A stretch of 64,000 bases of DNA from Candidatus Nomurabacteria bacterium RIFCSPLOWO2_01_FULL_42_17 (GTDB lineage Bacteria > Patescibacteriota > Minisyncoccia > Phycocordibacterales > UBA9973): NCBI GenBank assembly GCA_001785985.1, contig MFVE01000005.1, positions 16,556 through 80,555 of the forward strand, read 5' to 3'. Of the stretch, positions 699 to 60,296 are shown in pieces. Made by a program: the position numbers and the translations under genes. The notes below the pieces were generated by a model. It was not told where the DNA came from, made no database searches, and was given only the letters and a program-made list of their open reading frames with translations. Numbering within the stretch: position 1 is the first letter of the stretch; each line of letters begins with the position of its first letter.

Positions 699-3600
699 TT
701 ATTCTTTGCTTACGCCTTTTCTTAAATTCACATCAAGCGCTAGACCTCTTAAATAATTTAAGAGCACATTGAATGACGCGGGAGAATTCGGCGGTCTGAT
801 TTTTTCATTTTTAATAATAGAATCAAAAGTCGCGGATCTACCGAGAATGTCGTCAGATTTGATCGTGAGCATTTCACGCAGTGTGTACGCCGCGCCGTAA
901 CCTTCGAGCGCCCAGACTTCCATTTCTCCGAATCTCTGTCCTCCGCCTTGAGCTTTTCCGCCGAGAGGCTGTTGAGTAATGAGCGAATAAGGCCCGATAG
1001 AACGCATGTGAATTTTGTCTTCCACCATGTGGTGCAGTTTGAGCATATACATACAACCGACAGCCACATCTTGCTCGAAAGCTTCTCCGGTGCGTCCGTC
1101 AAAAAGTTTTAATTTTCCATTCTCTGGCAAACCTGCCTTTACTAACTCTTCCTTTATCTCCTCATGCTTGGCCCCGAGAAATGGCGGAACAATCGCCTGA
1201 TAATTGAGAGTGTTCGCGGCCATGCCGAGATGCATTTCTAAAATTTGTCCCAAGTTCATACGAGAAGGAACACCGAGAGGCGAAAGAATAATATCAATTG
1301 GTGTACCATCCGCCATATAAGGCATATCTTCCTCCGGCAGAATGGTGGAGATGACTCCCTTGTTTCCATGTCTTCCGGAAAGCTTGTCGCCCACGGAAAT
1401 ATTTCTGATCTGGGCAACTTCGATGACAATCTTTTTTATAATCCCCGCTTCGAGCGTGTGTCCGAGGTCACGAGAAAAGATCTTTACTCCAATGATGCGT
1501 CCGCGTTTGCCGTGTTCTACTCGCAGTGACGTATCTTTGACATCACGCGCTTTTTCCGCAAAGATCGAACGCAAAAGCCGTTCTTCTGGAGTCAGTTCCG
1601 TCTCGCCTTTGGGAGTAATCTTGCCGACTAAGATGTCATTTTCTCTCACTTCCGCTCCAATGCGGACAATTCCGTCTTCATCGAGATCTTTGAGCTTGAG
1701 TTCGCCGACATTTGGTATGTCACGAGTGGTGATTTCAGGGCCAAGTTTCGTATCACGAACCACGCAAGTAAATTCCTCGACGTAAACGGAAGTAAATTTA
1801 CTCTTTTTGACTAAACGTTCAGAGACGATGATCGCGTCCTCATAAGTTGAACCAGACCAAGAGAGAAAAGCCACCAGAATATTTTGTCCGAGAGAAATTT
1901 GTCCGCCGACGGTGCTACTCGTATCGGCCAATATATCGCCTTTTTTTATTTTATCCCCCACATTTACGAGCGGGCGCTGGTGGAATACGGCAAAGTTGTT
2001 ATTCCTCATAAAATTAATCAGATTATAAGTTTTGTCCCCGCCCGCATGACTCGCGTCAGCGTGTCGGGCAGGTTTTTTCTCCCCGCCTGCAACGCTATGC
2101 GTAGCATTGCGGGCAGGTGATTTGCCTTCTACCACTATCTTTTTCGCATCTAAGTAAGAGACAACCCCGTCTTCGGTTGCGATAACTAATCGCCCTCCGT
2201 CTCGCGCCGCCAACTCTTCAATACCGGTCGCAACCAGCGGAGCTTCCGGCAAAACGCAAGGTACAGCTTGCTTCTGCATGTTTGATCCCATTAAGGCTCG
2301 GTTCGCATTGTTGTGTTCCAAAAATGGAATCATCGAAGTGGCGATAGAGAAAGCTTGATTGGGAGAGACGTCAATAAAATCAACTTCCTCTCGAGAAATT
2401 TCTCCTGGTTCTGTCTTGATTCTGGCTTCAACTTTTTCTTTGGTTATCTTGCCGGACTCATCATAAGGAATTCCCGCATGCGCAATGTTATATTTTTCTT
2501 CCTCTAGCGCATTTAAATAAACCACCTCGTCAGTCAACTTGCCATTCTTGACTTTGATATAAGGAGTTTCGATAATTCCGAAGTCATTAATCTTGGCATA
2601 AGTGGCAAGGTGTAAAATAAGTCCGATGTTTGGACCTTCCGGAGTATGAATCGGGCAGACTCGGCCGTAGTGCGAAGGGTGCACATCGCGGACTTCCAGC
2701 CCCGCGCGTTCGCGTGTGAGACCTCCGGGTCCGAGCGCGGAGAGGGTGCGCAGATGCTCTATTTCATAAAGCACATTTTCTTGCGCCATAAATTGAGAAA
2801 GCTGGTTGGTAGTGAAAAATTCTTTGATGCGAGCTTGAAGTGGACGCTGATTGATGATCGCGATCGGCATCGCGGTATCGACATCAATAATAGACATGCG
2901 GTCTTGGATATTTCGCTTTATCTGCATCATACCAGTGCGAACTTTTTGCTGTAAAATTTCTCCGACAAAACGCACGCGCCTCTGGCCCAAGTGATCGATG
3001 TCGTCCGCCTTGGCGTCGGCTGTATTGTTCAAAGAAATAATGTGCGCAATAACTGTCGCTAAATCTTCCTTGGAAATTGTGCGGCGCGCCATCTCGGCTT
3101 CATCCATCCCCTTGCCGAAACGTTGGTTGAATCTGAATCTTCCGACTGGAGAAAGATCATATCGTTCAGCCGTAAATAATGAATTGATGAATTCTTTGGC
3201 ATTGTCCGCAGTGGCCATATCGCCGTCTCGGAGACGTTTGTAAATTTCAATATAGGCCTCATTTAAAGTCTTGATCCCGTCTTTGGAGAGAGTTGTTTTA
3301 ATAATTCCCTCTGCCGTAGCATCCCCGCCTGCATCGATTTGCGAAGCATTGCGGGCAGGCTTTGAAAAAGCCTTGACGATCGCCTCGTCGGTCTCATAAC
3401 CCATCGCGCGTAGTAGCGCGGTCGCCGGGAATTTTCTCTTTTTGTCTATTCTGATATAAATTCCTCCATCCGCTTCGGATTCTATCTCGATCCAAACTCC
3501 GCGAGCTGGGATGATCTTGGCGCCGAAATATCTGTTACCCTTGCTTTCAGATTCCGTAAAGAAAACTCCGAAACTGCGCGCGAGTTGCGGCACAATCACG

Positions 3601-4004
3601 CGTTCTACGCCGTTAATGATAAAAGTTCCGTGCGAAGTCATCAAAGGAAACTCAGACATAAAAATCTCTTGTTCTTTCACTGTGCCTAAAATTTTATTCG
3701 TCAATTTTACTCGCGCCTTCAGCAACCCTTGGTAAGAGAGCTTGTTGATTTTTGAATTATTTTCGTCCATCTTCGACTCACCGAGAGAAAAAGAAGTGAA
3801 TTCGAGTTGAAACTTTTTACCGGAATAATCATTGATAGGAGAAAATTCTTTGAAAACTTCGCCAATACCCTCTTCTATCAGCCACTTAAAAGATTTGATC
3901 TGCGCTTCGATCAAATTTGGAAATTCTACTAGCGGTTTTTTATACCTTGAAAAATACTTCTTCGGACGCTTGGTTATTGTATGCATATTGCTTGATCCAA
4001 ACAA
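699..4004 (-). CDS. rpoB: DNA-directed RNA polymerase subunit beta
   Basis: 1101-aa ORF with RpoB hallmarks throughout (…[37 protein letters not shown]…). Confidence 0.97.
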
Positions 4005-24692: not shown

Positions 24693-24790
24693 AATTTTAA
24701 TTTATCAAAATAAATATAAAATAAAACAAAAGAACAAATTAATACAAACTTAACCTTGCATATTGAGCGATTATATGATATAATTGCCTT

Positions 24791-25524: not shown

Positions 25525-26232
25525 TTAGTCTAATATTACTTTAATGATTCCTAAAGCAGATGATTCAAATAAAGGATTAATATTTCCCAACACATAAATA
25601 ATTTCATTCTTAAAAAAGGCAAAATAAAGTTTTCCATTTATTGTGTTTTTCAAAACAATAGTTCCATTTATTGTGATCTTTTCATAACCCGAAGAATCTG
25701 AGGATATCTTTTCAAAAGTATCTTGCGCCATACTCCGATTATTCATTTGCGCAAATGTACCACTGGCATTACTTTTCGATAGTGAGTTGCCACTATTAGG
25801 ATTTTCCACGAACTGATTATAATTTTTAGCGGTTCCAAAAAAATTAATATCAATGTCAACTTGCGCGACCGCGCCCACTTCACTCTCTTTTCGCACAGTA
25901 GTGTCTCTGCCGACCCAGTAATAAGCACTGCTTCCGTTTTCCTGAAGTCGTTTGACTATCGCACATAGTTTTTGTCCACTTATTCCCGACTGGGTAGATT
26001 CAATACAGCTATCATGGTCGCGAGCAATAAAATCTGAGAAAATATTGCTATTTGCTTGATTCGTGTCTGGATTATTATTTACTGAACTAGATCCAGTGTT
26101 TGCTGTTTTAAAATAATATACTCCCCCGCCTATCGCTAAAATTGCGATGATTGCAATAATCAAGGGAACCACAAAACCTTTTTGTGAGTTTTTCATAACT
26201 TTTATTATATCATACTCTTTCTTATATGCCAC
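25525..26232 (-). CDS. Hypothetical membrane-anchored/secreted protein
   Basis: N-terminal TM/signal anchor (VVPLIIAIIAILAIGGGVYYF) followed by a Ser/Asn-rich region. Bracketed by a 27-bp perfect direct repeat. Confidence 0.45.
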   Translation of the reverse strand: MAYKKEYDIIKVMKNSQKGFVVPLIIAIIAILAIGGGVYYFKTANTGSSSVNNNPDTNQANSNIFSDFIARDHDSCIESTQSGISGQKLCAIVKRLQENGSSAYYWVGRDTTVRKESEVGAVAQVDIDINFFGTAKNYNQFVENPNSGNSLSKSNASGTFAQMNNRSMAQDTFEKISSDSSGYEKITINGTIVLKNTINGKLYFAFFKNEIIYVLGNINPLFESSALGIIKVILD

Positions 26233-42880: not shown

Positions 42881-43710
42881 TGAAAGAATATCTTCTGAAA
42901 AATGAAATATACTACAGGACGAACGAATTTACCCCGGGCAAACTGACCTTGGTATTCATCCACGGAGTTTCCGGCTCCTCCTCGGCTTGGTGGCCGTATG
43001 AGAAAATATTCGAGAATGAACATCAGAATAAATATAATATTTTGACTTATGATATTCGCGGACATGGAAAATCAAAGAAATTTTTTCATTATTCTGATTA
43101 TCAAATAGAAAAATTCGCAGATGATCTCCATGATCTAGTGCTCCATCTAAACATTCCGAAATTTATTTTAATCAGCAATTCTTTTGGTGGGCTGATCCAT
43201 CTAGAATATCTAAAACTCTGGAGAGAAACTGTCATGGCGAATGTTTTTACTTCGCCGGAGATATATTTATACGAAACCTTCGTTGCAAAAATCATCAGAC
43301 CGGTCCTCAAAGGATTCACATGGATCCGAAGTCTTCTGCCTTTTAACCCCAAACCCCGCGGACATGTAGACTATAGCAAACATCTAAATTCGACCGACTG
43401 GGACATCAAGAGAAATTTGGCAGATATGATGAACACGACCCTGCTCGTGCATTTTTATACTCTTCGGCAATCTTTAATATTAAATCAAAAATACGAACTG
43501 GAAAAAATAAACGTTCCGACTCTGATCATCCATGGAGAAAAAGATTCAATGGTCCCCTTAAAAAAATCGATCAATATGTCGAAGGCAATAAAAGACTCCG
43601 AATTCATCAGCATCCAAAAGATTGATCATAACACCGCTCATAATGCTGTCAAAGAGATGTCAGAAGCGATAGAATCTTTTATTGAAAAGAATCGAAGTAT
43701 GCTAAAATAG
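42880..43710 (+). CDS. Alpha/beta-fold hydrolase
   Basis: LVFIHGVSGSS (oxyanion), nucleophile elbow ISNSFGG, and His near the C-terminus. Confidence 0.75.
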   Translation: MKEYLLKNEIYYRTNEFTPGKLTLVFIHGVSGSSSAWWPYEKIFENEHQNKYNILTYDIRGHGKSKKFFHYSDYQIEKFADDLHDLVLHLNIPKFILISNSFGGLIHLEYLKLWRETVMANVFTSPEIYLYETFVAKIIRPVLKGFTWIRSLLPFNPKPRGHVDYSKHLNSTDWDIKRNLADMMNTTLLVHFYTLRQSLILNQKYELEKINVPTLIIHGEKDSMVPLKKSINMSKAIKDSEFISIQKIDHNTAHNAVKEMSEAIESFIEKNRSMLK

Positions 43711-43714
43711 GCGT

Positions 43715-44353
43715 ATGGAAACTTATAAAAATCTTTTGACCAATAAAAATTTTCTCATATGTTTCTGCGGTGGCGTGATCTTGTTTGTCACGAGCTTGGT
43801 GGTGCAATTTTTTGTCAGCGGTTATGTGAATAGCCTGCCCACCGTGCCTGTGACAGATCTGATATTGAGCAATATCAGAGTCCACGACGTGGGCGGGATT
43901 TTTGTTTATGGATCAGTCTTGCTGTTTTTCTACGGCTTTTTATTGGGATTTAGACATCTCCACTACATGCCATTTGCCTTGAAGAGCGTGGGCCTTTTTA
44001 CTCTGATCCGATCTCTCTTTGTCATCCTCACCCATATCAGCGCTTTCCCGACTCGCATAGCCATCGAATCGCCTTTTTTTAACAATGCTCTTTTCAGCGG
44101 TATTTTCACCGGAAATGATCTCTTTTTCTCCGGACATACCGGACTGCCTTTTCTCTTGGCGCTAATGTTTTGGGAAAAGAAAAATATCAGAATAATTTTC
44201 CTCGGATTTTCTATTCTTTTTGCGATCGTCGTGCTCCTCGGGCATATCCATTATTCCATCGACGTCCTAGCGGCCTATTTCATCACCTACGGCATCTTTC
44301 AAATCTGTAAAGTTTTATTCAAGCAAGAATGGGCATTGTTCTTGAAGAAATAA
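43715..44353 (+). CDS. PAP2-superfamily-like integral membrane protein
   Basis: 5-6 TM segments. Motifs …SGHTG… and …HIHYSIDVLAAY… resemble the PAP2 C2/C3 boxes. Confidence 0.45.
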   Translation: METYKNLLTNKNFLICFCGGVILFVTSLVVQFFVSGYVNSLPTVPVTDLILSNIRVHDVGGIFVYGSVLLFFYGFLLGFRHLHYMPFALKSVGLFTLIRSLFVILTHISAFPTRIAIESPFFNNALFSGIFTGNDLFFSGHTGLPFLLALMFWEKKNIRIIFLGFSILFAIVVLLGHIHYSIDVLAAYFITYGIFQICKVLFKQEWALFLKK

Positions 44354-44556
44354 ATTTACTAGAAAAATTCAGACACCCTTTCTTGGCATACTTTTTATAA
44401 AGCAATCTATCTGGCACAGCTGTGCCAGCGAACTGCTCGTCGATCAAGAAAATAATAGAAAGAGTACTTTCTTTATTTTCTAATCTCCTGCGCAAGGCTT
44501 TCTAAAAAGTACGCCTGCGACGAGTAAGTCTGAATTTTTCTAGATTCTTTGGACTC

Positions 44557-44673
44557 TAGTGCAAGCAAAAGTGTTCTCTAAAATATCGTACGGAGAGGGG
44601 CGGGTCCGAAAGTCTTAGCAAATTTCAAGCCTAAAAATTATGCGGGTATTTTAGAGAATATTTTTGCTGGAAC
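44557..44673. repeat. Left arm of 117-bp inverted repeat bracketing the fibre cassette
   Basis: Reverse complement of 47741-47857 with 2 mismatches over 117 bp. Contains an internal 13-bp inverted repeat (TTCTCTAAAATA…TATTTTAGAGAA). Confidence 0.9.
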
Positions 44674-44676
44674 ATT

Positions 44677-47223
44677 TTAAATTTCTGGAGCGGGTTCTGT
44701 GGATTCAGAGTCCTCAACTACATCAGCCTCTGGTGCAGATGCTTCTTCCGATTCGGGTTCAGGTTCGGGAGTTACTTCAGGAGTAGATTCAGATTCCTCC
44801 GTCTCAGACGGAGGCGTTACCTCTGCATCAGAAACTTCAGAAGTTTCATCAGCCGGCTCGTCCACCGTCTCTTCCGCTACAGGCATTTCTTCATTGCTTT
44901 CTTGCTCAGAAGCCTGCCCTGTACCAGAGCTCTGCTCTTGGTTCGGGGAATTTCCATCATTTCCTAACATAGCATCCAGCTGACTTCTAGTATAGCAAGA
45001 AGTGCCGTTTGCATCTTTCAAACAAACTTCATCTAGAGTGGCCTTTTCTGCAAAGATATTTGTAATCCCATTCCCCACATCCCCCATCCAAGCAGTGAGT
45101 TTGGCATAGACATTGTCAAAGAAAGCAGTGACGAAAGATTGGTTAGATGAGCCTTCGAGCGGAGTGATGGTGCCAGAGATGGCGTTTAGGTTTAGATTGA
45201 GTTCATCTAGTTTGGTATTCGTCGCTTGGAGACCTAGCACCATATAGCCCAGAGTGTTCACAGGGTTCACGATGGTGCCTTTGTAGTGCATGGCCCAGGG
45301 TGCTTCATCTGCCATGACACCGACATATTCTGTGATGGTGTCTCCGGTTCCCATGCCTGGTTTGTAATGGAATTTATATATTTTGGTATTGAGGATTTGA
45401 GTGAGAGCTTCATTTGGATCATCTACTGTGCTAATGACGTCCTTTAATTCACGGGAAGAGGCAGCCGATGCCCAGGAAGTGATGCCGTCTCCTCCTGCAT
45501 CGGTGAGCTGTTGACCAGCAGAGCCTACTGCAGTGGGTAAGGTTAGAGTCCAGGTGCCAGCCGCTGCGGCTGTCTGCATTGTGACTACTCCAGATGTTCC
45601 TCCTGCTAAAGACATAGTACCTGCTCTGGAACCTGCTGTACCTAATGTAAGTAATGCGACCGGAGAATTATTTCCAATTCCGATTACTGCGTCTGTGTCT
45701 ACAGTGGTGCCAGTGGCATTTACGTTTAGGCCAAAAATTGTGTTGCCGATGACGAGCTGGTTGGAAGTTGTAGCCGAGGGAGCGTCAACATCATAACCTA
45801 TGATGAGATTATTAGAACCAGAAGTAATGGCATCACCTGCTCCTAAACCAATCGCAATATTATTATCCCCCGTCGTCACTGCCGTCAGAGCGTTGTATCC
45901 AAAAGCAGAGTTGTCATCTCCGCCGTTTGAGGTGTCAAGAGCGAGAGAACCGAAAGCGGAGTTGCGGGTGCCGGTTGTTTCTGTTGTCAGAACATTATAA
46001 CCAAAAGCAGAGTTATTGTCGGCGGTGGTATTAGCGTCAAGCGCCAAAGCTCCAAAAGCTGCATTTTGAGTGCCGGTTGTGTTGACACCCAAAACGTTAT
46101 AGCCAAAAGCGCTGTTGTTGTTGGCTGTAGTATTGGCACTAAGCGCAAAAGCTCCAACAGCTGTATTTTGAGTGCCAGTGGTGTTAGCATTAAGCGTAAA
46201 TGATCCGAAGGCTGAATTATTGTTGGCGGTGGTATTAGCACTAAGCGCTAAGGATCCAAATGCGGAATTTCTAATTCCAGTAGTATTAGCGCCCAAAACA
46301 TCGGGGCCAAAAGCTGCATTTTGAGTGCCAGTGGTGTTAGCGGTTAAAACATTATACCCAAAGGCAGAGTTTAAACTACCAGTGGTGTTGGCATCAAGTG
46401 CGAAAGATCCAAAGGCCGAGTTTGAACCACCGGTGGTGTTGGATATTAAAGCGTTATACCCGATCGCCACATTATCATCTCCCGTAGTGATAGCTGTGCC
46501 TGCATCAGCACCAACCGCCGTATTTCTTAATCCACTTGCAGCTGTAAGAGAATCAAGTGCGGTGCTTCCAAGAGCAGTGTTGCCATCGCCTGCAGAAGTT
46601 TGAGTAAAACCTGTAAGTGTTGCTCCATTCGGGATGGTGAGAGTTCCAGTGCTGGAGGTGATGGTGAGGCCGTTGATACTTGTAGCTGTGGCAACTCCAA
46701 GAACTGGAGTGACCAATGTCGGAGAAGTAGCTAAAACCAAAACCGTGCCACTGCCTGTGGTCGTCATTTCTCCGAGAACGCCAGCGTTGTTGTAGAGAAC
46801 TCTGCCGGATGTACCGCTGGTAATGGAAGTGGTGCCTACTGTGAGTCCGGTACTTAACGTCGCCCAAGTGAGTACTCCACTCCCATCCGTCTGCAGGTAT
46901 TGGCTAGCAGTACCGTCATCTGTGGGAAGAGTTAGAGTATATGTGCCAGCGATAGCAGCTGGTTGAATGATGATTTCACCAGAGGTACTGCCAGTGAGAG
47001 TGAGAAAATCTGTGGTGACTTCTGCTGCCATAGACTTGGCAAGACTTTGGACGTTGCTGTCGATTGAATTTAATGTTCCATTGAGTTGAGCGTCGAAGAA
47101 AGCTCGGGTGACGAATTGAGAGGGGTTTAGATTATCTGCCCCCCCCCCTCGGTCCTGCTGGACCTTGAATTCCCTGAGGGCCCATTGGTCCCTGGGGTCC
47201 TTGAGGTCCAGCGACGTAAACAA
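44677..47223 (-). CDS. Phage-tail-fibre-like surface protein with Gly/Asn-rich NTTGxxNxAFG repeats and C-terminal intramolecular-chaperone (Peptidase_S74/endosialidase chaperone) domain plus acidic tail. Probably the 3' part of a gene fused to 47132-47443 via a G10 tract.
   Basis: More than 12 tandem repeats (…NTTGTQNAAFG…). Ser-Lys dyad motif SSRELKDVIS…DDPNEALTQILNTKIYKFHYK typical of auto-cleaving tail-spike/fibre chaperone domains. The annotated Met start is probably not real. Confidence 0.75.
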   Translation of the reverse strand: MFTSLDLKDPRDQWALREFKVQQDRGGGADNLNPSQFVTRAFFDAQLNGTLNSIDSNVQSLAKSMAAEVTTDFLTLTGSTSGEIIIQPAAIAGTYTLTLPTDDGTASQYLQTDGSGVLTWATLSTGLTVGTTSITSGTSGRVLYNNAGVLGEMTTTGSGTVLVLATSPTLVTPVLGVATATSINGLTITSSTGTLTIPNGATLTGFTQTSAGDGNTALGSTALDSLTAASGLRNTAVGADAGTAITTGDDNVAIGYNALISNTTGGSNSAFGSFALDANTTGSLNSAFGYNVLTANTTGTQNAAFGPDVLGANTTGIRNSAFGSLALSANTTANNNSAFGSFTLNANTTGTQNTAVGAFALSANTTANNNSAFGYNVLGVNTTGTQNAAFGALALDANTTADNNSAFGYNVLTTETTGTRNSAFGSLALDTSNGGDDNSAFGYNALTAVTTGDNNIAIGLGAGDAITSGSNNLIIGYDVDAPSATTSNQLVIGNTIFGLNVNATGTTVDTDAVIGIGNNSPVALLTLGTAGSRAGTMSLAGGTSGVVTMQTAAAAGTWTLTLPTAVGSAGQQLTDAGGDGITSWASAASSRELKDVISTVDDPNEALTQILNTKIYKFHYKPGMGTGDTITEYVGVMADEAPWAMHYKGTIVNPVNTLGYMVLGLQATNTKLDELNLNLNAISGTITPLEGSSNQSFVTAFFDNVYAKLTAWMGDVGNGITNIFAEKATLDEVCLKDANGTSCYTRSQLDAMLGNDGNSPNQEQSSGTGQASEQESNEEMPVAEETVDEPADETSEVSDAEVTPPSETEESESTPEVTPEPEPESEEASAPEADVVEDSESTEPAPEI

Positions 47224-47443
47224 CAGGCTTTGTTGTGTTAGAGGAAGTGGGAGGTGCAGGAGGCGTAAGAATAGCAGGTGTTGGGACTGTCTTTACATAA
47301 TTCCTGAAGGCAGTGAGAAGCTCTGCGCTAGTAACAGCTTGTACTTTAACCGGAGAGAAGCTAAAAACAGAAAAAACCAAGATAAAAAATCCTAGTAATA
47401 TCTTTACTGACAGAAATTTTTTCCTGAATTCTTTTTGAATCAT
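47132..47443 (-). CDS. Signal-peptide + collagen-like (Gly-X-Y) N-terminal module of the fibre protein; terminates just after a G10 tract (frameshifted relative to 44677-47223)
   Basis: MIQKEFRKKFLSVKILLGFFILVFSVFSF (signal/TM) …GPQGPQGPMGPQGIQGPAGPRGGGR*. One fewer G would fuse it in frame to …ADNLNPSQFVTRAFF… of the fibre ORF. Confidence 0.65.
   Translation of the reverse strand: MIQKEFRKKFLSVKILLGFFILVFSVFSFSPVKVQAVTSAELLTAFRNYVKTVPTPAILTPPAPPTSSNTTKPVVYVAGPQGPQGPMGPQGIQGPAGPRGGGR
47139..47148. repeat. Homopolymeric C10/G10 tract at the junction of the collagen-like and fibre ORFs
   Basis: ctgCCCCCCCCCCtcgg is the longest G/C homopolymer in the window. Its length sets the reading frame between the two ORFs. 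Confidence 0.9.
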
Positions 47444-47446
47444 TTT

Positions 47447-47677
47447 TTATTTCAAGTTTTTTTCTATAATATCTACCCTCGTTTTTAGTTTGTTATAGTC
47501 TTCATATTTGACTTTGTTTAAAGACATATCGTCAAGCCTTCTATTTATCCCTCCAATATGATAAATCAAATTATTTTCAACTCTGGCCATATTTCTACTT
47601 GCTTCTTCAAAACCATTGGCAACCATAATTGCTAATTTATCAACGGTCATTTTTTTATTTTTTACGTCCTTCTTCAT
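47447..47677 (-). CDS. Hypothetical 76-aa protein, first gene of the fibre cassette
   Basis: ORF about 60 nt downstream of the right inverted repeat. Predicted helical/coiled-coil. No recognisable motif. Confidence 0.4.
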   Translation of the reverse strand: MKKDVKNKKMTVDKLAIMVANGFEEASRNMARVENNLIYHIGGINRRLDDMSLNKVKYEDYNKLKTRVDIIEKNLK

Positions 47678-47740
47678 ACAGGCAATTATATCATGGAAGT
47701 GTCATGAAAAGTATAAAAATGTGGATAACCCACACACCTA

Positions 47741-47857
47741 GTTCCAGCAAAAATATTCTCTAAAATACCCGCATAATTTTTAGGCTTGAAATTTGCTAAG
47801 ACTTTCGGACCCGCCCCTCTCCGTACGATATTTTATAGAACATTTTTGCTTGCACTA
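47741..47857. repeat. Right arm of 117-bp inverted repeat bracketing the fibre cassette
   Basis: See 44557-44673. Lies in the 5' leader/promoter region of the cassette operon. Confidence 0.9.
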
Positions 47858-47878
47858 GTCTGCGACGAGTTTGTAATT

Positions 47879-49084
47879 TTACCCCCACAAGTCCCAAATC
47901 ATTCCAGCAATATTTCTAGGCTTGCCTTCGAGAGCATAGTAATGCAGATCGATAAAAGGCAGGGTGTTGCATTCAATGATGCCCCATTTCTGAGAGGATT
48001 CTTCTTTGGTCGGATCAGGAATGATGCAATCAAATCCCACTACAGGCAGGCTCACTATTTTCTCCGCTTTTTCTAAAATAGGAATGAAGCTCGGGTGCAG
48101 ATCATCTATCATCTCGACAGTTTTGCCCCCAAAAAGTCTGCCGATCCTGTGCGTCAAAGACAGAGATACCCCTTGCGGTAAAATATCATCAAGCTTAAAT
48201 CCCGAGCGCAAAATATGATCGCATAATTCTTTTGAAATACGTATCGGTTCGACCCGGCTGTGACGATTTTTATCTTTTTCAATAATGAGCTCTCGGATTG
48301 TTTTCTTGCCATCCCCTACTAGAGTCGGAGCATGCCCTCGATAAAATCCAGCGAGAACTCCCCCCACAAAGGTCGCTCGACAGACACTGCCCTGCAAATG
48401 CTCTTCGACGATCAAACAAGGACAGATCGCTCCGGCTATCCGCAACCCTTCTTGAAACTGCTCTAAGGTATGAATATTAGTGACAGTATGTCTGCCCCGA
48501 GAGCCCACCCGCGGTTTGACGATTATGGGTTTTTGAAGCTTGGAAAATATTTCTCTGATAGTTTTACTTTTATTTTTCGGACTGAAAAAATTAAAATCAA
48601 AATAAGCTGGGATTGGGAGATTGTGCTTCTTAAATTCTCGCTTCATGATGACTTTATCATCCCAATTTACTCGCATCTCGGGAGATTCCGGCCTGGTCGG
48701 GATACTTTCAAAATAAATATTCCGGCCGTTTAATCTAGCGCGATAAAAATCTAAGGGTTTATTTAAAAATATCACTTGTTCCATCAGGATTCCCCTCTTT
48801 TTCGCTTCTTCCCAGATGATCCTAGAACGGAAACTGGCCGAACGCTCTATATCCGGAGAAAATTTAGCGAGTTTGAAAAAAGCGAAAGTTCTAAATAAAA
48901 ATTTGGGAAAGGAATCGGCAAAATCTTTTACAAAAAATGGAACGTATTTTATAAACTTTTTCAAATAATTATCTAAGGTGACGGAAACCACGCTCTCCAA
49001 AGCAGAAAGAGCGTGGTTGATCGGAGCATCAGCGCAATACGAACAAGAGCCTTCTTTGATATGAGGTTCAGAGACTGACAACAC
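47879..49084 (-). CDS. ATP-grasp-fold protein (RimK/cyanophycin-synthetase-like ligase)
   Basis: 401 aa whose central region (…IIVKPRVGSRGRHVT…LIVEEHLQGS…) matches an ATP-grasp nucleotide-binding pattern. Confidence 0.5.
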   Translation of the reverse strand: MLSVSEPHIKEGSCSYCADAPINHALSALESVVSVTLDNYLKKFIKYVPFFVKDFADSFPKFLFRTFAFFKLAKFSPDIERSASFRSRIIWEEAKKRGILMEQVIFLNKPLDFYRARLNGRNIYFESIPTRPESPEMRVNWDDKVIMKREFKKHNLPIPAYFDFNFFSPKNKSKTIREIFSKLQKPIIVKPRVGSRGRHTVTNIHTLEQFQEGLRIAGAICPCLIVEEHLQGSVCRATFVGGVLAGFYRGHAPTLVGDGKKTIRELIIEKDKNRHSRVEPIRISKELCDHILRSGFKLDDILPQGVSLSLTHRIGRLFGGKTVEMIDDLHPSFIPILEKAEKIVSLPVVGFDCIIPDPTKEESSQKWGIIECNTLPFIDLHYYALEGKPRNIAGMIWDLWG

Positions 49085-51747: not shown

Positions 51748-52968
51748 TTAATCCGCTAAAACACAGATAACCACGGTTTCATTATGAAAAGCTGAATTGC
51801 ATTGCTCTATATTTTTGACCTCGCCTCCAAGTGGAGCTTGCTCGCCATAAGTATAAAAACCAATCAGAGGAACTTCTTTGCCGATCGCCTGCTGGATCGC
51901 ATTTATTTCGTCTCCGGACTTTTCGCCAAAAAGTTTATTGCGGGCTATGCAGTTGAAGATGATGACTGCTTTTGGAGCACTGCCTTCTAATTGCGCGACT
52001 GCATTTTCGGCGGCAATTTTTGCCACTTTCACCGCTTCTTCGCGACTGCCCACCATCAAACGGACTTCTGAACCTTCTGGGATTTCCGCGGCGCAAGTGA
52101 TCGATCCATGTTCATCCACCGTGATCGGGTCTCGAATCAATAATTCATCGCTGCCGGCTACCTTCATCCCGAGCGGATAGGTGATGGCCAGTTTTGCTAG
52201 CGCTTCGGTACGCATTATTTTTGCTTCTTCTCCAAAGTAATCCTCGTAGATCTTGACTGCTGGAGCGCCATTAATTTCATGAATAACCGCGCCCTCCGAT
52301 TTAGTAACTTTCATGGACTCTCCGACCGGAATCCATCCATGCTTGACTCCGATACCGATCTTGAAATTGCCAACCAGCCCGAGCCCCACGACTGCGCCGG
52401 AATACACTTTGTCATTGACATACTGATATGTCTTCTTAAAAGCAAAATCGTCTCCCGAAGCTCCGCCCACGACCGGAAAATGAGCGCCGAGAGAATCTAA
52501 CACCCCACGCACGATGTCCGCACCATTCCCGACCAGTACGTCAGGCATCATCATGAAAGCCTTGAGAGAATCACCAGCTTGCTCTTTTACTTTGTCAGCA
52601 GCCATCTTTCCAGCCAACCTCGGATTCGCTAAAATATTTTCTCCGACGCCGACAAAATATTTTATTTCCGGAGATTTTATCGCCATGATAGCGACAGAAT
52701 GTTCTTTCATCGGGCCAGCAGTCGTGATCTCTCCGGAAGTCGAAGAGCCAACAAGTAGCGCCTCTTTTGCTACTGATCGCACGCCATCGATCACCTTCTG
52801 TTGATCATATTTAACCGAAGAAAAAACAATCAATAAATCTGGATTCTTGTCACCCAGCTGATCTATCGCATCTTGGCAGGCATTCACGCCGACTGCATAA
52901 GAATCGTCTCCGTATGCCATTCCCACACTCGCCTTCATTCCTTTTGTTTCCATCCCGTTAGAAATCAT
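51748..52968 (-). CDS. FIST-domain (FIST_N + FIST_C) sensory protein. True start is probably the second ATG at 52953 (METKG…).
   Basis: 406 aa with the Gly-rich FIST architecture. The first five codons coincide with the TTCTAACGGG motif that directly precedes the ATG of pilB. Confidence 0.7.
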   Translation of the reverse strand: MISNGMETKGMKASVGMAYGDDSYAVGVNACQDAIDQLGDKNPDLLIVFSSVKYDQQKVIDGVRSVAKEALLVGSSTSGEITTAGPMKEHSVAIMAIKSPEIKYFVGVGENILANPRLAGKMAADKVKEQAGDSLKAFMMMPDVLVGNGADIVRGVLDSLGAHFPVVGGASGDDFAFKKTYQYVNDKVYSGAVVGLGLVGNFKIGIGVKHGWIPVGESMKVTKSEGAVIHEINGAPAVKIYEDYFGEEAKIMRTEALAKLAITYPLGMKVAGSDELLIRDPITVDEHGSITCAAEIPEGSEVRLMVGSREEAVKVAKIAAENAVAQLEGSAPKAVIIFNCIARNKLFGEKSGDEINAIQQAIGKEVPLIGFYTYGEQAPLGGEVKNIEQCNSAFHNETVVICVLAD

Positions 52969-53056
52969 ACCATCTGTACAAATATTGCTATGTATAAAGA
53001 CAGTTAATTATTGTTAATTTTATAATATTATCCCGTTCTGTAAATTTCTAACGGGA
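52953..53056. promoter_or_regulatory. Leader hairpin from inverted TCCCGTTAGAAA motifs ending at the (second) ATG of the FIST gene
   Basis: Minus-strand mRNA: TCCCGTTAGAAAT…(about 80 nt)…ATTTCTAACGGG-AUG-GAA. Same architecture as the pilB leader. Confidence 0.5.
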
Positions 53057-53121
53057 TCCATAAAAAAATTGATTATCTGATAACAGCATTTATTATACCA
53101 ACTGATAGTAAATAGCGCTAG

Positions 53122-53208
53122 CGGATGAGGTGAGATTCGAACTCACGGTCCTTTTTAGGGGACGGCGGTTTAGTAAACCGCTACCTTAAGCCACTCGGTC
53201 ACTCATCC
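53122..53208 (-). tRNA. Class II tRNA (Ser-like: long variable arm, discriminator G) with apparent anticodon ACU (loop UUACUAA)
   Basis: Reverse complement folds with acceptor GGAUGAG/CUCAUCC, D-stem ACC/GGU, anticodon stem GCGGU/ACCGC, variable arm GUCC…GGAC and T-arm GUGAG-UUCGAAU-CUCAC. The A34 anticodon is unusual, so the assignment is tentative. Confidence 0.55.
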
Positions 53209-53298: not shown

Positions 53299-53387
53299 GG
53301 AGCCGTGTTGGAGTGGTCTATCAAGCATCTTTGCTAAAGATGTAGGGGCTTTAAAACCCCTCGAGGGTTCGAATCCCTCCGGCTCCG
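53299..53387 (+). tRNA. tRNA-Ser (anticodon GCU)
   Basis: Acceptor GGAGCCG/CGGCUCC, anticodon stem CAUCU/AGAUG, loop UUGCUAA, long variable arm, T-arm GAGGG-UUCGAAU-CCCUC and discriminator G. Confidence 0.85.
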
Positions 53388-53392
53388 CCTTT

Positions 53393-55965: not shown

Positions 55966-56090
55966 AAAGCCGCCTGCCCGCAATGCTAAAGCATAGCTTT
56001 TGCAGGCGGGGGAATTCCATTTTGAATGATGTTATCACTTTGAGACAGCCGTCAATTTTGATAACATTAATATTTGTTAATAACAGGTGC
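55948..56090. repeat. Direct repeat 1 (GAATTCCACTTTGA-hairpin CCGCCTGC…GCAGGCGG-GAATTCCATTTTGA), doubling as a terminator between recG and the Pif1-like gene
   Basis: About 72 bp at roughly 93% identity to 58927-58998, with weaker similarity for another 60 bp. 8-bp GC stem followed by T-run on the minus strand. Confidence 0.7.
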
Positions 56091-58926: not shown

Positions 58927-59062
58927 GAATTCCACTTTGAATAAAAGCTGCCTGCCCGCAATGCTAAAGCATAGCTTTTGCAGGCGGGGAGAATTTCATT
59001 TTGAGTAATTGTAATGTTTTTACTACACTGACGGCCGTTAGTTTGGTAAACATTAATAATTA
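58927..59062. repeat. Direct repeat 2 (same element as 55948-56090), downstream of the GNAT gene
   Basis: See 55948-56090. Confidence 0.7.
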
Positions 59063-59560: not shown

Positions 59561-59633
59561 GTCCGCCCTCTTGGACTCGAACCAAGGACAAGACGAGTAT
59601 AAGTCGTCTGCTCTACCAACTGAGCTAAGGGCG
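59561..59633 (-). tRNA. tRNA-Ile (anticodon UAU) candidate
   Basis: Reverse complement folds with acceptor CCGCCCU/AGGGCGG, D-arm GCUC-AGUUGGUA-GAGC, anticodon stem GACGA/UCGUC, loop CUUAUAC, T-arm CUUGG-UUCGAGU-CCAAG and discriminator A. Confidence 0.75.
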
Positions 59634-60296
59634 GATATTATTACTAATTCGAGAAATATACTTAAGGCTCATCACTATATATTCCCACAAATCTCTATTA
59701 TCAAACATAACACAGCAAGTCCCTTTTCCAAAGCCATTTTTATAAGTTATTGAGCTTAATTTAGTCCTTTTAATATATGACTTTCTAAACTGACTGACTG
59801 GTATTTTAAGCTCTTTTGACCAAAAACCAATACTCTTTTTGATATTCATATCAGAATATAAATGCAATTTTATTTTTAAATTTTTTCTTTTAACATTAAA
59901 AAGTTCTAACCATTTGATGAAAAATTTAAGCATCGATGGATTTGTATTTGTAAGAACCACCGAACCCTTCTGCATTTTAGTACCTTCTCCCCAATATAAA
60001 AAGAGTCCTAATAAGAATATCTCCCGCTCAGAGAAAACACCTATATCTTTAGAAACTTTTTGAAAAACTTTTTCCAAACGAGCTTCTCTTTTCGCTCGCA
60101 TTGTATTCCTAAAACGCTCAATGCGAATAGGACTGTCTGCTTGCAATTCTCTAATTCTTTTTTCTGATAATGGCATATTGTAAAGCCACCCGCTTAAGGT
60201 GCTTTTGCTTATTCCAAGCTTATCTTTTATTTGGCTATAACTCATGCCTTTTCGGCGCATGATTAGAGCCTTTTGTTTGTCTAATTTCCTTGCCAT
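59625..60296 (-). CDS. HTH-domain protein with possible LAGLIDADG-like endonuclease motif (3' end abuts/overlaps tRNA-Ile)
   Basis: N-terminal resolvase-type HTH (…GMSYSQIKDKLGISKSTLSGW…). Central …IFLLGLFLYWGEGTK… resembles a single LAGLIDADG motif. Tentative. Confidence 0.3.
   Translation of the reverse strand: MARKLDKQKALIMRRKGMSYSQIKDKLGISKSTLSGWLYNMPLSEKRIRELQADSPIRIERFRNTMRAKREARLEKVFQKVSKDIGVFSEREIFLLGLFLYWGEGTKMQKGSVVLTNTNPSMLKFFIKWLELFNVKRKNLKIKLHLYSDMNIKKSIGFWSKELKIPVSQFRKSYIKRTKLSSITYKNGFGKGTCCVMFDNRDLWEYIVMSLKYISRISNNIRP

What the first reader, a model, noticed from the sequence alone, without database searches (positions are those of the whole stretch)
44557..47857. 3.3-kb three-gene surface-fibre cassette bracketed by 117-bp near-perfect inverted repeats
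Positions 44557-44673 and 47741-47857 are reverse complements of each other (2 mismatches in 117 bp), far above background for this genome. They enclose exactly three minus-strand genes: a 76-aa protein, a collagen-like signal-peptide module, and an 848-aa tail-fibre-like protein. Each arm also contains its own 13-bp internal inverted repeat. On the coding strand the right arm sits in the 5' leader of the cassette. The identical left arm would direct any arm-borne promoter antisense into the 3' end of the fibre gene. An 11-bp direct repeat CTGCGACGAGT lies just outside both arms, at 44511-44521 and 47861-47871. Candidate explanations are a foldback/MITE-like mobile cassette, an invertible (phase-variable) segment recombining across the arms, or a horizontally acquired phage-tail-fibre module; its high Gly-codon content makes it G-rich relative to its flanks. 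For a putative episymbiont this is a strong candidate host-attachment or receptor-binding locus, and I could not match it to a described element.
Basis: seen in the sequence. Interest (0 to 1): 0.85.

Follow-up and report, generated by a model that had tools for sequence, protein, structure and literature searches.

The report
Repeat-bounded surface-fibre gene insertion
Two inverted copies of a 118-base hairpin-forming repeat really do bracket a 3.3-kb insertion, found only in this Nomurabacteria lineage, that carries a small gene and one long surface-fibre gene broken at a run of ten Gs; the G run, not flipping of the segment, is the likelier on/off switch.

Summary
The inverted repeat is real: 44556-44673 and 47741-47858, 118 nt with 2 mismatches. 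Each arm is itself an imperfect palindrome.

The interpretation needs correcting.
- **Two genes, not three.** The "collagen module" and the "848-aa fibre" are one 921-aa gene split at a G10 tract, the only G/C run of 7 or more in 64 kb. An intact paralog in the same organism reads straight through this junction.
- **A lineage-specific insertion.** In nine related Nomurabacteria genomes the flanking ATP-grasp and PAP2 genes are directly convergent, 24-153 nt apart, with no cassette.
- **The right arm is not the cassette's leader.** An intrinsic terminator and a host-type extended -10 promoter lie between it and the first gene.
- **No sign of an invertible switch.** Three assemblies show one orientation, no recombinase lies within about 73 kb, and inversion would give a mirror-image, functionally identical locus.
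- **Not a generic repeat.** No further arm copy was found in about 86 kb of this genome, 1.85 Mb of relatives, or the GTDB, JGI and IMG/VR scans.

Best reading (confidence 0.42): a transposase-less, repeat-bounded insertion cassette whose fibre gene is switched or inactivated at the poly-G tract. How the arms arose is unresolved.

The parts
44556..44673 (.). Left arm: a 118-nt imperfect palindrome. Its + strand gives the more stable RNA hairpin. It begins 3 nt after the fibre stop codon.
   Evidence: The + strand folds at -38.1 kcal/mol (z -3.75); the - strand at -24.2 (z -2.1).
47741..47858 (.). Right arm: the reverse complement of the left arm with 2 mismatches. It lies 20 nt after the ATP-grasp stop codon. 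Read on the - strand it is in the same stable-hairpin orientation.
47710..47735 (-). Intrinsic-terminator-like hairpin plus T-run (GTGTGGGTTATCCACAT TTTTATACTT), between the right arm and the first cassette gene.
47685..47695 (-). Extended -10 promoter motif CATGATATAAT, ending 7 nt before the ATG of the 76-aa gene (leaderless-type). The same arrangement precedes other genes in the window and the paralogous fibre gene.
47447..47677 (-). 76-aa small protein gene (A2917_02265), AT-rich (GC 0.286). Its stop is 3 nt before the fibre ATG. Homologs sit in unrelated genomic contexts in other genomes.
47132..47443 (-). 5' part of the fibre gene: signal peptide or membrane anchor plus eight collagen-like GXY triplets. 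It terminates prematurely because of the G10 tract.
47139..47148 (-). G10 homopolymer (C10 on the + strand). G9 or G12 restores a single 921- or 922-aa ORF. It is the only G/C run of 7 or more in 64 kb (0.024 runs of 10 or more expected).
44677..47223 (-). 3' ORF of the fibre gene (848 codons open; true coding continuation from 47138). It contains a beta-strand repeat region with 51-nt periodicity, an S74-type chaperone region and an acidic tail.
45301..45459 (-). Peptidase_S74-like intramolecular chaperone segment (residues 589-641 of the 848-aa ORF; motif SSRELK).
   Evidence: E 0.003, 18 bits, below the 22-bit cut-off. Most homologs carry PF13884.
45367..45399 (-). Cluster of 8 SNPs between this window and assembly L002. 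The L002 allele equals the paralog's sequence, indicating a gene-conversion tract.
44359..44543 (.). Second long hairpin element ('hp2') between PAP2 and the left arm. It is ancestral: a homolog fills the ATP-grasp/PAP2 spacer in a related species.
44515..44525 (+). Left copy of the 11-bp direct repeat CTGCGACGAGT, lying in an internal loop of hp2.
47860..47870 (+). Right copy of the 11-bp direct repeat, 1 nt outside the right arm.
47879..49084 (-). Flanking ATP-grasp (cyanophycin-synthetase-like) gene. In relatives it is directly convergent with PAP2.
43715..44353 (+). Flanking PAP2-family membrane protein gene, convergent with the cassette.

Best explanation
The 3.3-kb segment is a lineage-specific insertion between two convergent housekeeping genes (ATP-grasp and PAP2) of Candidatus Nomurabacteria bacterium RIFCSPLOWO2_01_FULL_42_17.

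**Structure (shown).** The segment is bounded by two inverted copies of a 118-nt palindromic element that resembles a miniature inverted-repeat element. It carries no transposase. Inside is a self-contained unit: terminator, host-type extended -10 promoter, a 76-aa gene, and one 921-aa secreted fibre gene. The fibre gene encodes a signal peptide, a collagen-like stalk, a beta-strand repeat shaft, an S74-type trimerisation chaperone and an acidic tail.

**Origin (inferred).** The segment entered as a repeat-bounded passenger cassette, in the manner of a mobile insertion cassette or a composite of two miniature elements.

**Present role of the arms (inferred).** Each arm is oriented so that the flanking gene transcribes it as a stable 27-bp-stem hairpin at its 3' end. 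The arms would then insulate the cassette from read-through and could be RNase III substrates.

**Switching (inferred).** Fibre expression is governed by the G10 tract through slipped-strand length change (G9 on, G10 off), not by inverting the segment. In all sampled consensus sequences the gene is in the off frame.
For: **Repeat and hairpins.**

**One gene split at G10.**
- The frames fuse at G9.
- The intact paralog P0134 in the same organism reads collagen->fibre without interruption and shares N- and C-terminal modules.
- G10 is present in three assemblies that differ elsewhere.
- A run of 10 is a strong outlier: the maximum elsewhere is 6, and 0.024 are expected.
- Other Gly codons in the collagen stretch are GGA, GGT or GGC.

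**Insertion.** Nine syntenic relatives have ATP-grasp and PAP2 24-153 nt apart with no cassette. hp2 is homologous to the spacer element of L028.

**Own terminator and promoter.**. The same motif lies upstream of the paralog.

**No recombinase or transposase.**

**Same orientation in three assemblies.**

**Arms restricted to the cassette boundaries.**

**CTAG at element ends.** CTAG sits at both outer ends of the cassette and at both ends of the right arm, although it is under-represented overall (130 observed against 235 expected in 64 kb).

**Other support.** An RNase III gene is present in the window. Precedents exist for mobile insertion cassettes (PMC4337579), for Correia elements cleaved or protected by RNase III (PMC2649163), and for poly-G phase variation (PMC8355987).
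Against: - No third copy of the arm and no cognate transposase were found anywhere. The searches covered about 86 kb of this genome, 1.85 Mb of relatives, and exact-pattern scans of GTDB genomes, JGI metagenomes and IMG/VR. There is therefore no independent sign that the arm was ever mobile.
- CTAG is its own reverse complement, so it cannot be told apart from the tip of the repeat. The target-duplication evidence is ambiguous, and the left arm lacks it at its inner end.
- Only the G10 product exists among about 15 billion public proteins; the G7-G9 and G11-G13 products are absent. Tract-length variation is therefore not shown, and the gene may simply be a recent pseudogene.
- No transcript data exist to show that the arms act as RNA hairpins.
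Confidence: 0.42

Rival explanations
1. The arm is a native intergenic hairpin, serving as a 3'-UTR element or bidirectional terminator of the convergent gene pair. It was duplicated in inverted orientation when the fibre operon was inserted, for example by template switching or hairpin-end processing at a palindrome. It is not a mobile element.
For: - Relatives carry exactly one long hairpin element in this spacer. It is hp2-like in L028, or a roughly 115-nt three-way-junction element in L045, L019, L016, L017 and L120, and it occurs in either orientation.
- Both arms are oriented as the stable hairpin for the adjacent flanking gene.
- No other arm copy was found anywhere.
Against: - No relative has a recognisable arm homolog at this or any position (nhmmer).
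- The ancestral element at this site appears to be hp2, which is still present next to the left arm.
- No established bacterial mechanism gives a clean 118-bp inverted duplication flanking an insertion.
Confidence: 0.25
2. The segment is an invertible (phase-variable) DNA switch that flips by recombination across the 118-bp arms.
For: - A 118-bp repeat at 98% identity is ample substrate for RecA-type recombination.
- Homologous exchange is active in this population: a 33-bp gene-conversion tract was copied from the paralog.
- Near-identity of the arms could reflect concerted evolution.
- Several assemblies break near the locus.
Against: - Three assemblies from different samples are colinear in one orientation and keep the same two arm mismatches.
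- No invertase or integrase lies in about 73 kb.
- The terminator, promoter and operon all lie inside the arms and the flanks are convergent genes. The flipped state would be a mirror image with the same expression, so inversion gives no switch.
- The contig breaks lie in hp2 or inside the 76-aa gene, not at the inner arm boundaries.
Confidence: 0.08
3. The split fibre gene is a recently inactivated pseudogene and the G10 tract has no switching role. The cassette is then a decaying remnant.
For: - All public consensus sequences carry G10.
- No tract-length variant product is on record.
- An intact paralog exists that could cover the function.
Against: - The 848 downstream codons are fully open with no second lesion.
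- The tract itself, not a random indel, is the lesion. It uses GGG codons that are atypical for the gene.
- The paralog has no such tract.
- The gene still receives conversion tracts.
Confidence: 0.3
4. The cassette is a horizontally acquired phage tail-fibre module or prophage remnant.
For: PHROG hits to tail-spike and virion structural proteins, collagen-like tail-fibre matches, and an S74-type chaperone.
Against: - No phage genes lie in the window.
- GC3 is native.
- The N- and C-terminal modules are 86-95% identical in DNA to a chromosomal paralog.
- The family is very large in cellular genomes of Patescibacteria and Bacteroidota (5239 hits).
- Arm patterns are absent from IMG/VR.
Confidence: 0.05

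Closest known systems
Mobile insertion cassettes (MIC231 of Bacillus cereus; TALE-gene cassettes flanked by TnXax1 repeats in Xanthomonas; PMC4337579)
   Same: Passenger genes for surface or virulence-type functions are bracketed by inverted repeats. There is no transposase inside. The site is empty in relatives.
   Different: - The arms are 118 nt, longer than typical IS ends (under 100 bp), and each is itself a palindrome.
- No cognate IS and no second copy are known.
- The target duplication is ambiguous.
- Mobility is not shown.
Correia repeat enclosed elements of Neisseria and ERIC/RUP-type miniature palindromic repeats (PMC2649163, PMC10969869)
   Same: - The size is about 100-150 nt, with terminal inverted repeats of about 26-30 nt.
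- The location is intergenic.
- The element is co-transcribed with neighbouring genes as a long hairpin that RNase III could cut.
- TA/CTAG lies at the ends.
   Different: Those families have tens to hundreds of copies per genome. Here only two copies were found, exactly at the borders of one insertion.
Homopolymeric-tract contingency loci (poly-G genes of Campylobacter, Neisseria, Haemophilus; PMC8355987, PMC2831843)
   Same: - A G10 run lies early in the ORF of a surface-structure gene in a low-GC genome.
- A change of one base restores the frame.
- The tract is a composition outlier.
   Different: Length variation is not observed in any public assembly. To my knowledge this has not been described for Patescibacteria.
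Invertible segments (Hin/Gin/Cin tail-fibre switches, fimS, shufflons)
   Same: Inverted repeats flank a fibre-related segment.
   Different: - Those repeats are 14-30 bp recombinase sites with an adjacent invertase, and inversion changes a promoter or coding junction.
- Here there is no invertase, and the flipped state would be equivalent.
Tail-fibre/endosialidase proteins with a C-terminal intramolecular chaperone (Peptidase_S74, PF13884)
   Same: A collagen-like or beta-helical trimeric fibre is followed by an S74-like segment with Ser and Lys five residues apart (SSRELK).
   Different: - It is a chromosomal, signal-peptide-bearing cellular protein.
- The Pfam score is below the curated cut-off.
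- A long acidic tail follows the chaperone.

Membership tests
Miniature inverted-repeat element (Correia/ERIC-like) | Small size (under about 300 bp) with terminal inverted repeats and no coding capacity | tested here: met
   118 nt, 27-30-nt imperfect terminal repeats, no ORF of its own.
Miniature inverted-repeat element (Correia/ERIC-like) | Multiple dispersed copies in the genome | tested here: not met
   Only two copies in the 64-kb window plus about 22 kb of other contigs of the same organism. None in 1.85 Mb of relatives or in the GTDB, JGI and IMG/VR scans. The complete genome could not be scanned.
Miniature inverted-repeat element (Correia/ERIC-like) | Target-site duplication at both ends | tested here: inconclusive
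   The right arm is flanked by CTAG/TA on both sides. The left arm has it only on its outer side. CTAG is palindromic, so it may simply be the tip of the repeat.
Mobile insertion cassette / composite element | Passenger genes between inverted repeats, with no transposase inside | tested here: met
Mobile insertion cassette / composite element | Empty site in related genomes | tested here: met
   Nine syntenic relatives have ATP-grasp and PAP2 adjacent.
Mobile insertion cassette / composite element | Repeats identical to the ends of a known IS that supplies transposase in trans | not testable with these tools
   No transposase was found in the window.
Invertible DNA switch | Site-specific recombinase encoded nearby | tested here: not met
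   None among the ORFs and called genes of the window and 8.8 kb beyond it.
Invertible DNA switch | Both orientations present in the population | tested here: not met
   The window and two other assemblies are colinear. Raw reads were not available, so minority isoforms remain untested.
Invertible DNA switch | Inversion changes a promoter-gene or coding junction | tested here: not met
   The terminator, promoter and operon are all inside the arms, and the flanks are convergent genes.
Homopolymeric-tract contingency locus | A long G/C run inside the ORF whose length sets the reading frame | tested here: met
   G10 at 47139-47148; G9 or G12 gives a 921- or 922-aa ORF.
Homopolymeric-tract contingency locus | Tract length varies among cells or strains | tested here: not met
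   G10 in all three assemblies. Only the G10 product is in the public protein collection. Read-level variation was not testable.
Peptidase_S74 tail-fibre chaperone family (PF13884) | Match to the Pfam model above the gathering score | tested here: inconclusive
   18.2 bits, E 0.003, against a cut-off of 22. Most homologs are annotated with PF13884. There is no PDB sequence hit.
Prophage / phage module | Neighbouring phage structural, replication or integration genes | tested here: not met
   The flanks are housekeeping genes.

The most novel reading that the evidence does not exclude
The arms are the ends of a still-mobilisable, transposase-less adhesin cassette in an ultra-small episymbiotic bacterium, or they recombine to flip it. 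Together with the poly-G tract and gene conversion from a paralog, this would form a dedicated variation module for a host-attachment fibre. It would be the first contingency locus described in the Candidate Phyla Radiation.
Probability: 0.12. Interest if true: 0.65.

Novelty: new member of a known kind. Interest (0 to 1): 0.4.

Why it matters
Patescibacteria (the Candidate Phyla Radiation) are thought to live attached to host cells, yet how they vary their attachment structures is essentially unknown.

This locus offers a concrete case that existing metagenome reads could test. It is a secreted collagen-like fibre gene, recently inserted, with three features that can be measured:
- a poly-G frame switch;
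- modular paralogs that exchange sequence;
- hairpin repeats at its borders.

If minority G9 reads exist, this would show classical contingency-locus behaviour in a streamlined episymbiont.

They look like boundary scars or insulators, not a switch.

Tried and rejected
- **Known RNA families.** Rfam at gathering threshold on the window, at E<=10 on 44300-48100, and on L019 gave no family for the arm, hp2 or the relatives' element. The arms contain no tRNA or tmRNA.
- **Exact arm patterns in public collections.** No hits in GTDB genomes, JGI metagenomes or IMG/VR.
- **nhmmer with the arm.** No hit in 176 fetched loci beyond the same organism.
- **Homology to the relatives' element.** Homology of the arm to the three-way-junction element at the same site in relatives is only a vague resemblance, not supported by nhmmer.
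- **11-bp direct repeat as target duplication.** Rejected. Its left copy lies in an internal loop of the ancestral hp2, 30 nt from the arm.
- **Arm-borne promoter.** The consensus scan found none.
- **Arms at the paralogous fibre locus.** None, and no poly-G there.
- **Linkage of the 76-aa gene to fibre genes elsewhere.** None. Its homologs sit next to pilC and pilins, CysRS, L2/S19 with HEPN-MNT, or DnaK and VirD4.
- **Tract-length variants in public proteins.** None.
- **PDB sequence search with the fibre.** No hit.
- **Diversity-generating retroelement.** Set aside. The Pfam scans of ORFs of 150 aa or more and the gene tables show no reverse transcriptase, and the repeat finder on 43500-49000 shows no template/variable repeat pair.
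- **Other look-ups.** Those for the rpoB product and P0001 returned nothing.

Full report
**1. Observation**

The inverted repeat exists. The arms are at 44556-44673 and 47741-47858. They are 118 nt long with 2 mismatches (left-arm positions 44571 and 44578) and lie 3067 nt apart. No other inverted pair in the region exceeds 30 nt. A 25-nt arm probe with up to 3 mismatches finds only these two sites in the window, against 0 in shuffles.

Each arm is itself an imperfect palindrome, with 27-30-nt stems around a 61-nt loop. As RNA, the left arm's + strand (equivalent to the right arm's - strand) folds at -38 kcal/mol (z -3.75). The complement folds at only -24 kcal/mol, because several stem pairs are G-U.

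**2. Gene content**

The 103-aa "collagen module" and the 848-aa "fibre" overlap at a G10 run (C10 at 47139-47148 on the + strand). Removing one G fuses them into a 921-aa protein. Its parts, in order, are:
- a signal peptide;
- eight GXY triplets;
- a beta-strand repeat shaft with 17-residue (51-nt) periodicity;
- an S74-like chaperone segment;
- an acidic tail.

Supporting evidence:
- A paralog in the same organism (P0134, 1116 aa, locus L096) reads straight from collagen into the same N-terminal module. It shares the C-terminal module but has an LVIVD beta-propeller centre. It has no poly-G and no flanking repeat.
- The G10 run is the only G/C homopolymer of 7 or more in 64 kb, where 0.024 runs of 10 or more are expected.
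- G10 is present in two other assemblies that differ from the window elsewhere.
- Products expected from G7-G9 or G11-G13 are not in the public protein collection. Only the G10 product is present.

The frameshift is therefore real, but length variation has not been demonstrated.

**3. Source and context**

The 76-aa protein is identical to A2917_02265 of Candidatus Nomurabacteria bacterium RIFCSPLOWO2_01_FULL_42_17. The window is core chromosome: rpoB, gyrB, ligA, SMC, RNase III, type IV pilus genes and tmRNA.

No recombinase or transposase was found in the window or in 8.8 kb beyond its end. The only transposase-like signal is an N-terminal helix-turn-helix in a 223-aa protein at 59625-60296, which has no catalytic domain.

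**4. The cassette is an insertion**

In nine related genomes with conserved synteny (histidine kinase, response regulator, ATP-grasp -> <- PAP2, hydrolase, glycosyltransferase), ATP-grasp and PAP2 are directly convergent and 24-153 nt apart. None has the 76-aa or fibre genes there.

The spacer in those relatives holds at most one long hairpin:
- In L028, L130 and L131 it is a homolog of the window's second hairpin, hp2 (44359-44543). The core is conserved and the stems covary.
- In L045, L019, L016, L017, L101 and L120 it is a different element of about 115 nt with a three-way junction. This element occurs in either orientation.

The arm has no detectable homolog in 1.85 Mb of these related loci. 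It is also absent from the paralog locus, from the extra sequence of the same genome, and from exact-pattern scans of GTDB genomes, JGI metagenomes and IMG/VR. It is therefore not a generic intergenic repeat. Its only two copies coincide with the borders of the insertion.

**5. Transcription layout**

On the coding (-) strand the order is:
- ATP-grasp stop, then 20 nt;
- right arm, in the stable-hairpin orientation;
- an intrinsic terminator (47735->47710);
- the extended -10 motif CATGATATAAT, ending 7 nt before the ATG of the 76-aa gene;
- the 76-aa gene, then 3 nt;
- the fibre gene, then 3 nt;
- left arm, then hp2, then the PAP2 stop.

The same -10 arrangement precedes other genes in the window and the paralog. 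The right arm therefore belongs to the 3' end of the ATP-grasp transcript, not to the cassette's leader. Read from PAP2, the left arm is again in the stable orientation.

All control elements lie inside the arms and the flanks are convergent. Flipping the segment would give a mirror-image locus with unchanged expression.

**6. Inversion test**

Assemblies L002 (ANAN16-1 scaffold_10358) and L003 (ERZ4903072) span both arms. They are colinear with the window and keep the same two arm mismatches. No inverted isoform was seen.

Contigs carrying PAP2 stop inside hp2, at 44353-44536. One assembly breaks inside the 76-aa gene. These breaks are unexplained and could hide strain heterogeneity, but they are not at the inner arm boundaries. 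The Logan contig that ends at 47806 is what a k=31 graph would give from the repeat alone.

**7. Recombination is active**

The eight differences between L002 and the window all fall in 45367-45399. There the L002 allele matches the paralog at 98.75%, against 88.75% for the window allele. This is a short gene-conversion tract between fibre paralogs. It shows modular exchange, and it makes occasional arm-arm recombination plausible though not shown.

**8. Origin of the fibre gene**

- GC3 is 0.416, within the background of 0.443 +/- 0.047. The higher total GC comes from Gly/Ala/Thr content.
- Both gene ends are 86-95% identical in DNA to the chromosomal paralog.
- The family is very large in cellular genomes, with PHROG similarity to tail-spike and virion proteins.
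- A recent phage origin is not supported.
- The 76-aa gene is AT-rich (GC 0.286). Its homologs occur in unrelated contexts, so it behaves like a wandering small gene.

**9. Interpretation**

*Shown:*
- a repeat-bounded, transposase-less, lineage-specific insertion;
- a self-contained operon inside it;
- a fibre gene interrupted at an outlier G10 tract.

*Inferred:*
- It entered as a cassette bounded by two copies of a miniature palindromic element, comparable to mobile insertion cassettes (PMC4337579) or composites of miniature inverted-repeat elements (PMC10969869). CTAG at the ends, although CTAG is under-represented in the window, is compatible with TA/CTAG-targeting transposases from general knowledge of the IS630 and IS5 families. 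This is ambiguous because CTAG is palindromic.
- The arms now serve as 3' hairpins and insulators, as described for Correia elements (PMC2649163).
- The poly-G tract is a slipped-strand switch, as in Campylobacter and Neisseria (PMC8355987). The gene is in the off frame in every sampled consensus sequence.

*Main rivals:*
- a native hairpin duplicated at insertion (0.25);
- a plain pseudogene, as a rival to the switch sub-claim (0.30);
- an invertible switch (0.08);
- a phage module (0.05).

**10. Verdict**

The locus is a new member of known kinds: a repeat-bounded passenger cassette and a homopolymer-interrupted surface gene, in a lineage where neither has been described to my knowledge. Interest is moderate (0.4). 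The most useful follow-up is read-level counting of G-tract length and junction orientation.

Noticed in passing
window 44359-44543 (hp2); L028:9206-9338, L130:7206-7338, L131:5870-6002: A conserved long hairpin of about 150-185 nt lies between ATP-grasp and PAP2. Its core is nearly identical between two species, and both the inner hairpins and the outer stem covary. It has no Rfam match and is a candidate structured RNA or bidirectional terminator.
   Followed up: partly
L045:9213-9330, L019:1532-1624, L016:9221-9326, L017:2637-2751, L120:7230-7343, L012:664-744, L095:687-813 and 3763-3895: An element of about 115 nt with a three-way junction. The core is conserved (GGAGGGGTTT..GAGAACTTCAGGATTTTTTAAGCTTCAAAAAATCCGTACCGG), and each copy has its own perfectly paired outer stem. 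It occurs downstream of ATP-grasp in several Nomurabacteria in either orientation, and twice within a ribosomal-protein operon. It has no Rfam match.
   Followed up: partly
window 55973-56014, 58951-58993, 2077-2117, 3322-3359; nested in L095:751-808 and 3831-3886: A GC-rich palindromic repeat of about 40 nt (CCTGCCCGCAATGC...GCAGGCGGG) is dispersed in this genome. Two copies lie inside the rpoB ORF. In another genome it is nested inside a copy of the three-way-junction element.
   Followed up: no
window 45367-45399 versus L002:12279-12311 and L096:8159-8238: Eight clustered SNPs between strains match the paralogous fibre gene, indicating a short gene-conversion tract in the S74 region.
   Followed up: yes
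L096:5554-8904: A paralogous 1116-aa fibre has the same N- and C-terminal modules but an LVIVD beta-propeller centre. This suggests modular swapping of the receptor-binding domain within one genome.
   Followed up: partly
window 47447-47677; L009:10001-10243, L012:9507-9746, L093:694-933, L095:1993-2238: A 76-81-aa coiled-coil-like protein family is found in unrelated contexts: between pilC and the pilins; next to CysRS; between L2 and S19 beside a HEPN/nucleotidyltransferase pair; and between DnaK and a VirD4-like gene. Its function is unknown and it may be mobile.
   Followed up: partly
window 47685-47695(-), 24774-24784(+), 26204-26214(-), 32818-32828(-): The extended -10 motif TGATATAAT lies about 7 nt upstream of start codons, suggesting leaderless transcripts are common in this organism.
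   Followed up: no
window 53121-53208(-), 53299-53389(+), 59561-59634(-): ARAGORN calls a tRNA-Ser with anticodon ACT next to a tRNA-Ser(GCT) on the opposite strand, and a tRNA-Ile with anticodon TAT. The anticodons are unusual and were not examined further.
   Followed up: no
window 59625-60296(-): A 223-aa protein beside tRNA-Ile has a transposase-type N-terminal helix-turn-helix (HTH_23, weak IS3 match) and a C-terminal region with no family match that contains a GLFLYWGEG motif. It has no catalytic transposase domain.
   Followed up: partly
window 44353-44536 and about 47536: Four independent contigs carrying PAP2 end inside hp2, and one assembly's 49-kb contig ends inside the 76-aa gene. 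The breaks are not at the repeat boundaries and are unexplained. They may reflect strain heterogeneity at this locus.
   Followed up: partly
window 52231 (FIST gene 51748-52968): There is a 3-nt (AGA) indel in a GAA/AGA repeat between the window and assembly L003.
   Followed up: no
window 52942-53067: Another long hairpin (24-nt stems, 78-nt loop) lies between the FIST gene and tRNA-Ser.
   Followed up: no
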